DNA of 64,000 nt, from the NCBI RefSeq assembly GCF_055900595.2, contig NZ_CM148325.1. One strand, given 5' to 3'. The translations under genes were made by a program, and so were the position numbers. Below the pieces are notes generated by a model that was not told the origin of the DNA, did no database searches, and saw nothing but the letters and a program-made list of their open reading frames with translations. Every line of letters starts with the position of its first letter. Position 1 is the stretch's first letter. Below, piece by piece: positions 41,533 through 44,535 of this stretch.

Positions 41533-42470
41533 GCGTTCGTCCTCTCTGCAATACGCAGAACTGAACTACGGGCACGAGGGTTCTCAGCCACCTCTTCTTC
41601 GCCCGGCATTAACTTGCCTAGTGCTCGCAGCTGACGGCCACCCAGTTTTTTGAGCTGCTCTTCAGTCATCGGTAACCCTGCCGGAACTTGCGGACCACGG
41701 CTGTTTTCACGCATAAAGCGTTTCACAATGCGGTCTTCCAGCGAGTGGAAGCTGATGATCGAGAGCCTCCCCCCCGGGGCCAGCACGTTGAGCGAGCTTT
41801 TTAGCGCCTGCTCTATCTCCTCCAGTTCACTGTTTACCCAAATGCGCACCGCCTGGAAGGTACGGGTCGCGGGATGTTTAAACTTATCTTTCACCGGCGT
41901 TGCGGCAGCCACGACTTCCGCCAGTTCTTTGGTGCGGGTCATCGGCTGTTCGCGGTTTCGCTCGACAATGGCGCGGGCAATGCGTTTGGCAAAACGCTCT
42001 TCACCATAGGTTTTCAATACCCAGGCGATATCGGCTTCTTCTGCGGTTTGTAGCCATTCAGCGGCTGACTGCCCACGGGTTGGGTCCATACGCATGTCCA
42101 GCGGACCATCGCGCATAAAGGAAAAGCCGCGTTCAGCATCATCAAGTTGCGGTGAAGAGACGCCAAGATCGAGGAGAATGCCGTCGATCTTGCCGATAAG
42201 ATCGCGCTCGGCAACATATTCGCCCAGCGCGGAGAAAGGTCCGTGGATGATGGAGAAGCGCGGATCATCAATAGTCTTCGCAACGGCGATAGCCTGCGGG
42301 TCGCGATCGATCGCCAGCAAACGCCCCTCTTCGCCAAGCTGCGAGAGGATCAGACGTGAGTGACCACCGCGACCAAAAGTCCCATCAATGTAGATGCCAT
42401 CAGGACGGATATTGAGGCCATTAACGGCTTCATCCAGCAGCACCGTAGTATGTTTATAGTTTTCCATCAT
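41529..42470 (-). CDS. rsmH: 16S rRNA m4C1402 methyltransferase RsmH (MraW)
   Basis: Track ORF 41529..42599 trimmed to [16 protein letters not shown]... (313 aa) at ATG 42468-42470. Confidence 0.92.
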
Positions 42471-42471
42471 T

Positions 42472-42930
42472 TTATAGAGACAAGTCCTGCAGTCGCTCCG
42501 ATAAGTCTCCGGTAGCCAACTGCTCTGCGTCGATATCTTCCTTGACCTGTTGATGCCAGGTTGTTTCATCCCACAGCTCAAACTTGTTGAACTGTCCAAC
42601 CAGCATCACTTCTTTTGTCAGCCCGGCATGTTGCCGCAGTACTGGCGCGATTAATAATCGACCGGCGCCATCCATCTGACATTCGCTGGCATGACCTAAC
42701 AGAAGGCGCTGCACACGGCGCTCAACCGGGTTCATGCTCGACAGACGCGATAATTTTTGCTCGATAATTTCCCATTCAGGCAGGGGGTAAAGCAGCAGGC
42801 ACGGGTGATGAATGTCAATGGTGCAAACCATTTGACCGGCAGCGTTCTCAAGCAGCTGTTCCCGATAACGGGTAGGCACTGATAAGCGCCCTTTGCTGTC
42901 GAGATTGACTAACGTTGCTCCCCGGAACAT
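42472..42930 (-). CDS. mraZ: transcriptional regulator MraZ
   Basis: Track ORF 42472..42966 trimmed to [19 protein letters not shown]... (152 aa) at ATG 42928-42930. Confidence 0.92.
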
Positions 42931-42948
42931 GCCAGCCTCACCCCTTAT

Positions 42949-43021
42949 TCCCACTTTGCCCCACAATTTCCCACTGAAAGGAGTTTACGGAGCGGAGGAA
43001 AAGCTTGTCAAGCCAGTCACA
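42949..43021 (-). promoter_or_regulatory. Pmra promoter with three MraZ-box direct repeats (TGGGN at 10-bp spacing)
   Basis: Minus strand reads TTGACA - 18 nt - TAAACT, then GTGGGaaattGTGGGgcaaaGTGGGaataa (plus-strand CCAC at 42951, 42961, 42971) just upstream of mraZ. Confidence 0.7.
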
Positions 43022-43530
43022 AGGCATACCGAGGTAAAAAACCCGATGTTTACGGCTAATATCAGCGTTGTTTATTTTACGTCCAACGTGCGAAGCAAAT
43101 TAACGTTATGAATAGCTGTAAGAAAAAATCCCTCATGGTCATCACCGTTTTAAAATGACTAACTATTTTCCACAGCAAATATAAAGTGTCAGTTTGCGAC
43201 GCGAGCGGCATTTTAGGACATATCTTCCCCAGTTAACAGTCCCTGTTGCGTCTGTGTGGCGCTTGATGCCAGCAGGTTTGCGCAAAAGCAAAGAAAAGTG
43301 TTTGTTAAATCGGCAATTCATCTCTGCATGTAACAAAATAATGCAAAAACGCTCTGTCAATATTGCTTAATTATTGTGAATTTCAGCAGGTGAGTTAATT
43401 AATGGGCGGGTTTAAAAGCATTTATCAATAATAGCCAGGAATAGTCTTATTTACTTTAAGGATATTGATGTCCATTCCCGTACTCGACGCGCCAATGAGA
43501 AATTCACTGGCGCGTATTTTTGTTCGCGGC

Positions 43531-44535
43531 TTAGTTACGGCTGAGCACGCCGCGGCGATAGAGATTACGTTTAATGCGCGTTAACCCAGGTTTTGGCTTA
43601 CGCGGTTCGTCCAGGCTTGCCAGGACAATTTCCAGCACACGCTCTGCGACATCGCGGTGACGTTGAGCCACTGCCAGCACCGGGCACTGTAAGAAGTCGA
43701 GCAGTTCGTTATCGCCAAAGGTGGCAATTGCCAGGTCAGAAGGCAGTTTGCCATCGCGACGCAGCGTGACATCCATCACCCCTTGCAACAACGCAAACGA
43801 CGTTGTGAACAGCGCCTGCGGCATCGGATGCGTTTCCAGCCATTTTTCGAATAACTGGGCAGCCGCCTCCCGCTCATAACTGTTGGCATAAAGGAAATGC
43901 ACTTCGCGCGGATCATCTTTCCAGGCAGTACGGAAACCTTGCTCACGCAAGAAGCTCACAGAAAGCTCCGGCAGCGCGCCAAGATAAAGCACCGTCTCGG
44001 CGGGAAACTTACGTAACTCTTCCGCCAGCATTTCGGCATCATCCTGATCGGCACCAACCACGCTGGTGAAGTGTTCACGATCGAGGGCGCGGTCCAGCGC
44101 GACAATCGGGAACGGGTCGTTAGCCCAGCGTTGATAAAAAGGATGCTCTGGTGGCAACGACGTCGAAACAATAATGGCATCAACCTGACGCTGTAGAAGA
44201 TGCTCAATACAACGCATTTCGTTGTCTGGCTGATCTTCTGAGCAAGCAATCAGCAGTTGATAACCCCGTTGCCGCGCCTGACGTTCAAGATAATTAGCGA
44301 TGCGGGTATAGCTGGTGTTCTCCAGATCGGGGATCACAAGACCAATAGAACGTGTGCGTCCAGCACGAAGCCCAGCTGCCACGGCGTTCGGGTGGTAATT
44401 GTGCTCACGCACCACAGCCATGACTTTTTCAACGGTTTTGTCGCTCACACGGTATTGCTTCGCTTTGCCGTTAATAACATAGCTTGCAGTGGTCCGCGAC
44501 ACTCCCGCTAGCCGAGCGATTTCATCCAGTTTCAC
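43531..44535 (-). CDS. cra: catabolite repressor/activator Cra (FruR), LacI family
   Basis: ORF track 334 aa; N-terminal [26 protein letters not shown]. Confidence 0.94.

What the first reader, a model, noticed from the sequence alone, without database searches (positions are those of the whole stretch)
42949..43021. MraZ operator: three TGGGN direct repeats phased at 10 bp next to Pmra
The repeats GTGGGaaattGTGGGgcaaaGTGGGaataa on the minus strand sit immediately downstream of a near-consensus -35/-10 (TTGACA/TAAACT) and 19 nt upstream of the mraZ ATG, consistent with MraZ autorepression of the dcw operon.
Basis: partly seen in the sequence, partly recalled or inferred. Interest (0 to 1): 0.25.

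Follow-up and report, generated by a model that had tools for sequence, protein, structure and literature searches.

The report
Known MraZ operator at E. coli Pmra

Summary
On the minus strand, TTGACA (43011-43006), an 18-nt spacer and TAAACT (42987-42982) are followed by GTGGG at 42974, 42964 and 42954, with 19 nt to the mraZ ATG (42930). The triple repeat is unique in the 64-kb window and absent from all shuffles.

The window is E. coli chromosome (cra | mraZ-rsmH-ftsL-ftsI-murE). From the -35 to the ATG it differs from K-12 by one spacer base.

All 80 other Enterobacteriaceae species examined keep GTGG-N6-GTGG-N6-GTGG. Of the 81 sequences compared, 74 keep the geometry TTGACA-18-TAAACT-7-GTGG. 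This block is nearly invariant, while most of the remaining intergenic DNA drifts.

Published single-base Cappable-seq data put the K-12 start site on the first G of box 1 (window 42974). The boxes therefore cover +1 to +25.

The downstream gene is a bona fide MraZ (Pfam PF02381) carrying the DNA-contacting Lys13/Arg15 and the second DXXXR arginine.

Papers citing Eraso et al. 2014 report that MraZ binds these repeats and represses mraZ to murC. A 2026 cryo-EM study shows one MraZ subunit bound per box.

Verdict: already known, interpretation supported, low interest. Nuances: the conserved core is GTGG rather than TGGGN, a fourth degenerate box is possible, and the G-quadruplex motif is E. coli-specific.

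The parts
43006..43011 (-). Pmra (mraZ1p) -35 hexamer TTGACA, 6 of 6 consensus
   Evidence: Sequence read and promoter scan. Invariant in 77 distinct Enterobacteriaceae sequences.
42988..43005 (-). 18-nt promoter spacer. It is almost invariant across Enterobacteriaceae except 42996-42994. It contains the only difference from K-12 (C at 42994, A in K-12).
   Evidence: The PdhR gel-shift probe in PMC3265435 is the K-12 equivalent of about 43031-42988.
42982..42987 (-). Pmra -10 hexamer TAAACT, 4 of 6 consensus
   Evidence: Invariant across Enterobacteriaceae. The geometry TTGACA-18-TAAACT-7-GTGG is kept in 74 of 81 sequences.
42974..42974 (-). Transcription start site inferred from K-12: the G of box 1. 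Alternative reported starts are 42975 and, from 1997 mapping, 42968.
   Evidence: Cappable-seq start site at K-12 89590, read score 27.2 (PMC4782308 supplement), mapped to the sequence. SMRT-Cappable-seq gives 89588 and 89589 (PMC6131387 supplement). The 38-nt leader of Hara 1997 is cited in PMC7761207 and PMC5089854.
42970..42974 (-). MraZ box 1, GTGGG (+1 to +5)
   Evidence: The GTGG core is present in all 81 sequences.
42960..42964 (-). MraZ box 2, GTGGG (+11 to +15)
42950..42954 (-). MraZ box 3, (AAA)GTGGG (+21 to +25). The fifth base is G only in E. coli and is T, C or A in the other 80 species.
42941..42944 (-). Possible degenerate fourth box, (AA)GGGG, in 10-bp phase (+31 to +34). It cannot be separated from the ribosome-binding region. 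Uncertain.
   Evidence: GGGG sits at the fourth phased position in 69 of 81 sequences. M. genitalium and Burkholderia operators have four boxes.
42936..42939 (-). Shine-Dalgarno GAGG, 5 nt before the ATG
   Evidence: Sequence read. Conserved.
42472..42930 (-). mraZ coding sequence (152 aa plus stop), encoding the repressor that binds the boxes
   Evidence: ORF list, Pfam PF02381, PDB relatives 9qlr, 9qlg, 9sx6 and 1n0e, DXXXR motifs D11-R15 and D87-R91 with K13, and RefSeq annotation.

Best explanation
The segment is the Pmra (mraZ1p) promoter of the E. coli dcw cluster together with its MraZ operator.

Sigma-70 RNA polymerase uses TTGACA-18 nt-TAAACT and starts at the G of the first GTGGG. 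Three GTGG(G) boxes at +1, +11 and +21 lie one helical turn apart, and so on one face of the DNA.

By homology with the M. genitalium structure, each box is read in the major groove by the 'cradle-like' beta-sheet motif of one MraZ subunit (Lys13, Arg15, and Arg91, which corresponds to M. genitalium Arg86). Neighbouring subunits of an opened MraZ ring then bind cooperatively.

Because the array covers +1 to +25, bound MraZ is inferred to occlude the start site and the downstream polymerase contact region. This would block open-complex formation or promoter escape.

The outcome is negative autoregulation of mraZ and of the co-transcribed genes rsmH, ftsL, ftsI, murE and onward.

Shown here: the sequence anatomy, its uniqueness, its conservation, and the identity of MraZ. 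Taken from the literature: MraZ binding, repression and start-site mapping in K-12, whose operator is identical. Inferred: the exact step of transcription initiation that is blocked.
For: 1. The anatomy is exact, and the triple repeat is unique in 64 kb with 0 of 100 shuffles matching. The promoter scores 10 of 12.
2. The locus is E. coli cra | mraZ-rsmH-ftsL-ftsI. The 94-nt promoter-operator segment is found once in each of 5423 of 5426 complete genomes, at 99% identity or better in 3504 of them. It differs from K-12 by one spacer base.
3. Phylogenetic footprint: all 80 other Enterobacteriaceae species keep GTGG-N6-GTGG-N6-GTGG. The block 43013-42950 is nearly invariant, while only a few short upstream islands are similarly conserved. 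The promoter-to-box geometry is kept in 74 of 81 sequences.
4. Cappable-seq puts the start site at K-12 89590, the first G of box 1. SMRT-Cappable-seq reports operon starts at 89588 and 89589.
5. The protein is MraZ (PF02381, E = 4e-47). It aligns with M. genitalium MraZ across both DXXXR motifs, and K13, R15 and R91 are present.
6. Literature: E. coli MraZ binds the repeats downstream of the Pmra -10 and represses mraZ to murC (PMC7761207; PMC8475190). [quoted passage not shown] The B. subtilis equivalent is described in bioRxiv 10.1101/2022.02.09.479790.
7. The leader RNA has no significant structure (z = -0.28) and leaves the repeats unpaired. There is no Rfam match. Both points favour a DNA-level element.
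Against: No binding or expression experiment was or could be done on this strain.

The primary paper (Eraso et al. 2014) is not held in the library, so its results are cited second-hand.

The 1997 start-site mapping gives a 38-nt leader, corresponding to window 42968. That is 6 nt downstream of the Cappable-seq position and 13 nt past the -10, so the two mappings disagree. Either position still lies inside the operator.

Loss of mraZ gives no obvious phenotype in E. coli (PMC8475190), so the physiological weight of this repression is unclear.

The mechanism by which bound MraZ stops RNA polymerase is inferred from position alone.
Confidence: 0.93

Rival explanations
1. The G-runs function chiefly as a G-quadruplex on the non-template DNA strand or in the 5' UTR RNA. 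This structure would throttle transcription or translation of mraZ independently of MraZ protein.
For: The window has a canonical (G3+ N1-7) x4 motif at 42972-42941: GGG-7-GGGG-6-GGG-5-GGGG. It is one of only three such motifs in 64 kb. A 2025 paper reports a functional G-quadruplex downstream of the S. aureus mraZ promoter and claims conservation in Gram-negative bacteria (PMC11796246).
Against: None of the 80 other Enterobacteriaceae species has the canonical motif in -70 to +3. Their box 3 is GTGGT, GTGGC or GTGGA, so the third G-run has only two Gs. Selection therefore preserves GTGG at a 10-bp phase, not four G3 tracts. The idea is also already published.
Confidence: 0.04
2. The repeats act at the RNA level in the 44-nt leader. 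They would be a structured element or a protein-binding site, for example GGA motifs for CsrA, controlling mraZ translation or stability.
For: The repeats are transcribed, lying at +1 to +25 according to Cappable-seq. GGA occurs in boxes 1 and 3.
Against: The leader folds no better than shuffled sequences (z = -0.28), and the repeats are unpaired in the minimum-energy structure. No Rfam family matches. The strict 10-bp phase and the invariant GTGG core fit a DNA helical repeat. The same boxes occur in organisms where they overlap or precede the start site.
Confidence: 0.02
3. The repeats are a chance or neutral short tandem duplication with no function.
For: None beyond the general frequency of short repeats.
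Against: None of 100 shuffles matches. The repeats are retained in all 80 other species examined, while the spacers between boxes and most of the remaining intergenic DNA vary.
Confidence: 0.005

Closest known systems
E. coli K-12 Pmra (mraZ1p) promoter with its three MraZ direct repeats (Hara et al. 1997; Eraso et al. 2014)
   Same: Same locus and same organism. The sequence from the -35 to the ATG is identical except for one spacer base. The gene order is the same.
   Different: Only the single nucleotide difference at 42994 (C here, A in K-12), which lies in the one variable patch of the spacer.
M. genitalium and M. gallisepticum MraZ boxes (AAAGTG[T/G] repeats; cryo-EM structures in PMC12957436)
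   Same: Direct repeats with a GTG(G/T) core at a 10-bp period, next to the -10 and overlapping the start site. One MraZ subunit binds per box. The Lys13, Arg15 and second-motif arginine residues are conserved.
   Different: The mycoplasma operator has four clear boxes with an A-rich 5' flank. E. coli has three clear boxes plus at most a degenerate fourth. E. coli MraZ is reported to form a dodecamer rather than an octamer.
B. subtilis MraZ-binding repeats (GTGG[A/T]G x3) and the four 7-nt repeats at B. cenocepacia PmraBc
   Same: Phased GTGG repeats between the -10 and mraZ that mediate autorepression of the mra operon.
   Different: The flanking bases, the number of repeats (four in Burkholderia) and the leader length (100 nt in Burkholderia) differ.
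Operators of beta-sheet repressors (Arc, CopG, MetJ) and of AbrB/SpoVT-fold regulators
   Same: Recognition by beta-strands in the major groove, with cooperative binding to tandem short boxes.
   Different: The protein families are different. MetJ-type boxes are 8-bp tandem palindromes, not 10-bp-phased direct repeats.

Membership tests
MraZ operator (MraZ boxes / MraZ-binding repeats) | At least three direct repeats with a GTG(G/T) core spaced one helical turn (10 bp) apart | tested here: met
   GTGGG at 42974, 42964 and 42954, an exact 10-bp period, unique in the window.
MraZ operator (MraZ boxes / MraZ-binding repeats) | [quoted passage not shown] | tested here: met
   The boxes start 7 nt after TAAACT and end 19 nt before the mraZ ATG. 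The gene order mraZ-rsmH-ftsL-ftsI-murE follows. The K-12 start site falls on the first base of box 1.
MraZ operator (MraZ boxes / MraZ-binding repeats) | Cognate MraZ protein with two DXXXR motifs and the DNA-contacting Lys/Arg residues | tested here: met
   PF02381 at E = 4e-47. D11-R15, D87-R91 and K13 are present. The protein aligns with M. genitalium MraZ chains from the PDB.
MraZ operator (MraZ boxes / MraZ-binding repeats) | Boxes conserved in orthologous promoters while the inter-box spacers vary | tested here: met
   All 80 other Enterobacteriaceae species keep the three GTGG cores. The fifth base and the spacer bases vary.
MraZ operator (MraZ boxes / MraZ-binding repeats) | Direct, box-dependent binding of MraZ (gel shift or footprint) | not testable with these tools
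   Reported for K-12, whose operator is identical, by Eraso et al. 2014. That result is cited second-hand from PMC7761207 and PMC8475190. The primary paper is not held.
MraZ operator (MraZ boxes / MraZ-binding repeats) | MraZ-dependent repression of the downstream operon in vivo | not testable with these tools
   Literature only: repression of mraZ to murC in E. coli (PMC7761207).
Sigma-70 promoter (Pmra / mraZ1p) | -35 and -10 hexamers with a 16-18 nt spacer | tested here: met
   TTGACA-18-TAAACT scores 10 of 12. Both hexamers are invariant across Enterobacteriaceae.
Sigma-70 promoter (Pmra / mraZ1p) | Mapped start site about 6-9 nt downstream of the -10 | tested here: met
   The K-12 Cappable-seq start site at 89590 is the 8th base after TAAACT. 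The older 38-nt-leader mapping is 6 nt further downstream. Nothing was mapped in this strain.
G-quadruplex regulatory element | Four G3+ tracts with loops of 1-7 nt | tested here: met
   Present at 42972-42941 on the minus strand.
G-quadruplex regulatory element | Motif conserved in orthologous leaders | tested here: not met
   None of the 80 other Enterobacteriaceae species has the canonical motif.

The most novel reading that the evidence does not exclude
The E. coli operator may be a four-box array, as in Mycoplasma and Burkholderia. The fourth box would be the degenerate, 10-bp-phased (AA)GGGG at 42944-42941, which abuts the Shine-Dalgarno sequence. A four-subunit MraZ arc would then cover +1 to about +35. 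GGGG sits at this phased position in 69 of 81 Enterobacteriaceae sequences. In Buttiauxella, an exact 10-bp insertion keeps it in phase and separates it from the ribosome-binding site. In most taxa, however, its conservation cannot be distinguished from ribosome-binding-site constraint. Outside Buttiauxella it also decays in the long-leader group.
Probability: 0.2. Interest if true: 0.2.

Novelty: already known. Interest (0 to 1): 0.08.

Why it matters
[quoted passage not shown] MraZ is among the most widely conserved bacterial regulators. The operator is therefore biologically important, but it has been described genetically, biochemically and, in a homologue, structurally.

This check adds only confirmatory detail:
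- a clean phylogenetic footprint across 80 Enterobacteriaceae species;
- GTGG, rather than TGGGN, as the conserved core;
- agreement between modern single-base start-site data and the predicted -10, which places box 1 at +1;
- the finding that the G-quadruplex motif in this leader is E. coli-specific.

Tried and rejected
1. I tried to read the primary papers: Eraso 2014 by DOI and PMC4010979, Hara 1997 as PMC179470, and Mengin-Lecreulx 1998 as PMC107448. None is held, so I relied on papers that cite them.
2. A full-text search for 'TGGGN' together with MraZ returned nothing.
3. An Rfam scan of 42400-43600 gave only a sub-threshold osmY hit inside mraZ (19.9 bits against a gathering score of 46.9). 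I judged it chance.
4. Folding the 5' leader showed no significant structure, so I rejected an RNA-element reading.
5. I considered the G-quadruplex reading and rejected it as the selected function, because none of the 80 other species keeps the motif.
6. I tested whether the conserved islands upstream of Pmra encode the 44-aa ORF at 43211-43077. The ORF length ranges from 7 to 74 aa across species, so it is not conserved.
7. I tested whether the same islands form a conserved RNA structure. RNAalifold found essentially none, at -0.9 kcal/mol, although the single E. coli sequence folds moderately well (z = -1.89).
8. The genome-contig scan with a single protein reached only Enterobacteriaceae at 88% identity or higher. 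The cross-phylum generality of the boxes therefore rests on the literature, not on my own data.

Full report
**Observation.** Reading 42400-43600 on the minus strand shows the following features:
- the -35 TTGACA at 43011-43006;
- an 18-nt spacer;
- the -10 TAAACT at 42987-42982;
- seven bases, CCTTTCA;
- GTGGG at 42974-42970, 42964-42960 and 42954-42950, an exact 10-bp period;
- 19 nt that include GGGG (42944-42941) and the Shine-Dalgarno GAGG (42939-42936);
- the ATG at 42930-42928.

GTGGG-N5-GTGGG-N5-GTGGG, even with one mismatch allowed, occurs once in the 64-kb window and in none of 100 dinucleotide-preserving shuffles. The looser GTGG-N6-GTGG-N6-GTGG is also unique, with a shuffle mean of 0.005. 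The consensus scan rates the promoter 10 of 12, the best site in the region.

**Identity of the locus.** The 1.2-kb region matches 5423 of 5426 complete E. coli genomes once each. RefSeq annotates cra, mraZ ('division/cell wall cluster transcriptional repressor MraZ') and rsmH there.

The ORF list gives mraZ (42930-42472), rsmH, ftsL, ftsI and murE on the minus strand, with cra upstream.

Against K-12 MG1655, the stretch from the -35 to the ATG is identical apart from C (window) versus A (K-12) at 42994 in the spacer.

The 94-nt promoter-operator segment is at 99% identity or better in 3504 genomes. All but one of the remaining genomes are at 95-99%.

**The protein.** The 152-aa product hits Pfam MraZ (PF02381) at E = 4e-47. 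By sequence it matches the solved MraZ chains 9qlr, 9qlg, 9sx6 and 1n0e. It carries DXXXR motifs at D11-R15 and D87-R91, and K13. These align with M. genitalium D11/K13/R15 and D82/R86 in the printed alignment.

**Comparative evidence.** A genome-contig scan with the protein returned 80 loci from different Enterobacteriaceae species, at 88-96% protein identity.
- Every one has GTGG-N6-GTGG-N6-GTGG upstream of its mraZ.
- Across 77 distinct upstream sequences, the block from CTTGACAAG through the third GTGG (43013-42950) is nearly invariant. Variation is confined to a 3-nt patch of the spacer, the three bases before box 1, two bases after box 2 and the fifth base of box 3.
- Only a few short islands further upstream are conserved to a similar degree. 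The rest of the 600-bp intergenic region drifts.
- The geometry TTGACA-18-TAAACT-7-GTGG holds in 74 of the 81 sequences compared.
- Box 3 is GTGGG only in E. coli and is GTGGT, GTGGC or GTGGA elsewhere. The selected core is therefore GTGG, often preceded by A/T-rich bases such as AAAGTGG, which agrees with the GTG(G/T) consensus in the literature.

**Transcription start.** Two papers state that Hara et al. 1997 mapped the Pmra start 38 nt upstream of mraZ (PMC5089854; PMC7761207). That position corresponds to window 42968, which is 13 nt past the -10.

The Cappable-seq table of Ettwiller et al. 2016 lists a plus-strand start site at K-12 89590 with a read score of 27.2. It is the strongest start site in the neighbourhood, and none is listed at 89596. 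Position 89590 is the G of the first GTGGG, which is window 42974. It is the 8th base after TAAACT.

SMRT-Cappable-seq lists mraZ-led operons starting at 89588 and 89589. I did not check that table's coordinate convention.

The older mapping differs by 6 nt but still falls inside the operator.

**Mechanism.** The literature held in the library states the following:
- E. coli MraZ binds the repeated sequence downstream of the Pmra -10 and represses mraZ through murC (PMC7761207; PMC8475190).
- An R15A change in the first DXXXR motif abolishes the lethality of overproducing MraZ (bioRxiv 10.1101/2022.02.09.479790).
- In M. genitalium, cryo-EM shows four subunits of an opened MraZ ring on four boxes. 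Each 'cradle-like' beta motif sits in a major groove, and Lys13, Arg15 and Arg86 contact TG(T/G). Binding and repression fall stepwise as boxes are mutated (PMC12957436).

Combining these reports with the anatomy here, the most likely mechanism is cooperative binding of three adjacent MraZ subunits, and possibly a fourth, to one face of the DNA from +1 to +25. This would occlude the start site and the downstream polymerase contacts and produce negative autoregulation. Which initiation step is blocked is inferred, not shown.

**Rivals.**
- *G-quadruplex.* The window has a canonical four-tract motif at 42972-42941. None of the 80 other species has it, and the idea is already published for S. aureus (PMC11796246).
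- *RNA-level leader element.* The leader is not significantly structured (z = -0.28) and matches no Rfam family.
- *Chance.* The shuffles and the conservation exclude it.

**Possible extension.** GGGG sits at the fourth 10-bp-phased position in 69 of 81 sequences. In Buttiauxella an exact 10-bp insertion keeps it in phase and moves it away from the ribosome-binding site. In other long-leader taxa it decays, and in the short-leader taxa it cannot be separated from ribosome-binding-site constraint. I give a genuine fourth box about 0.2 probability.

**Verdict.** This is the known Pmra promoter and MraZ operator of E. coli, so novelty is 'already known' and interest is low.

Noticed in passing
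window 43239-43175 and 43131-43088 (minus strand): Two strongly conserved non-coding islands lie in the cra-mraZ intergenic region. The first is CTGTTAAC...CCTAAAATGCCGCTCGCGTCGCAAACTGACACTTTATATTT, with a -10-like TAAAAT at 43215-43210. The second is TTTTTCTTAC...TATTCATAACGTTAATTTGC. Cappable-seq lists a K-12 start site at 89360 (read score 9.4), which is about window 43204, just after that TAAAAT. Nothing is annotated there in K-12 and there is no Rfam hit. The mechanical 44-aa ORF is not conserved, and no conserved RNA structure was found. The islands are probably an upstream promoter plus protein-binding sites. Their function is unexplained.
   Followed up: partly
window about 43347-43327 (minus strand): A third small conserved block, TTTTGCATTATTTTGTTACAT, ends at a weak Cappable-seq start site (K-12 89237, read score 2.1, about window 43327). 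It may be another minor promoter upstream of Pmra.
   Followed up: no
window 42988-43031 (minus strand): The Pmra spacer and the flank of the -35 are conserved far more than a sigma-70 spacer requires. Gohler et al. 2011 (PMC3265435) used the K-12 equivalent of this stretch as a PdhR gel-shift probe. They reported very weak binding in vitro and 1.7-fold enrichment by ChIP. A second regulator may overlap the -35.
   Followed up: partly
L083 (E. coli WS3294A, NZ_CP035819.1), equivalent to window 42976-42972: One of the 5423 matching E. coli genomes carries a 5-bp deletion (CAGTG) that removes box 1 and the start-site base. It also shifts boxes 2 and 3 five base pairs closer to the -10. It is either a natural operator mutant or an assembly error.
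   Followed up: partly
window 42972-42941 (minus strand): A canonical G-quadruplex motif is formed by the three boxes plus the GGGG before the Shine-Dalgarno sequence. It is present in E. coli only, because box 3 ends in G there. None of the 80 other Enterobacteriaceae species has it.
   Followed up: yes
L055, L057, L058, L061, L065, L070, L071, L078, L080 and other loci whose boxes start 52-54 nt upstream of the ATG: In Buttiauxella, Cedecea and some other genera, the leader between box 3 and the ATG is about 10 bp (8-10 bp) longer than in E. coli. The extra unit in Buttiauxella, GGGGAATTTA, resembles a box-plus-spacer unit. This suggests gain or loss of one repeat unit during evolution.
   Followed up: partly
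L023 (CACSKA010000010.1): A record titled 'Chryseobacterium sp. 18061' carries an Enterobacteriaceae-type mraZ locus with 93% protein identity to E. coli. Its box sequence (GTGGGGATTTGTGGGCGAAAGTGGA) and leader are identical to those of Citrobacter sp. 18056 from the same project. The assembly is probably mislabelled or contaminated.
   Followed up: no
window 42400-43600 compared with E. coli genomes: Only 19 of 5423 genomes are at 99% identity or better to this 1.2-kb stretch, and the rest are at 95-99%. Most of the divergence from K-12 lies in the cra-proximal half of the intergenic region. The window therefore comes from a minority E. coli lineage at this locus.
   Followed up: no
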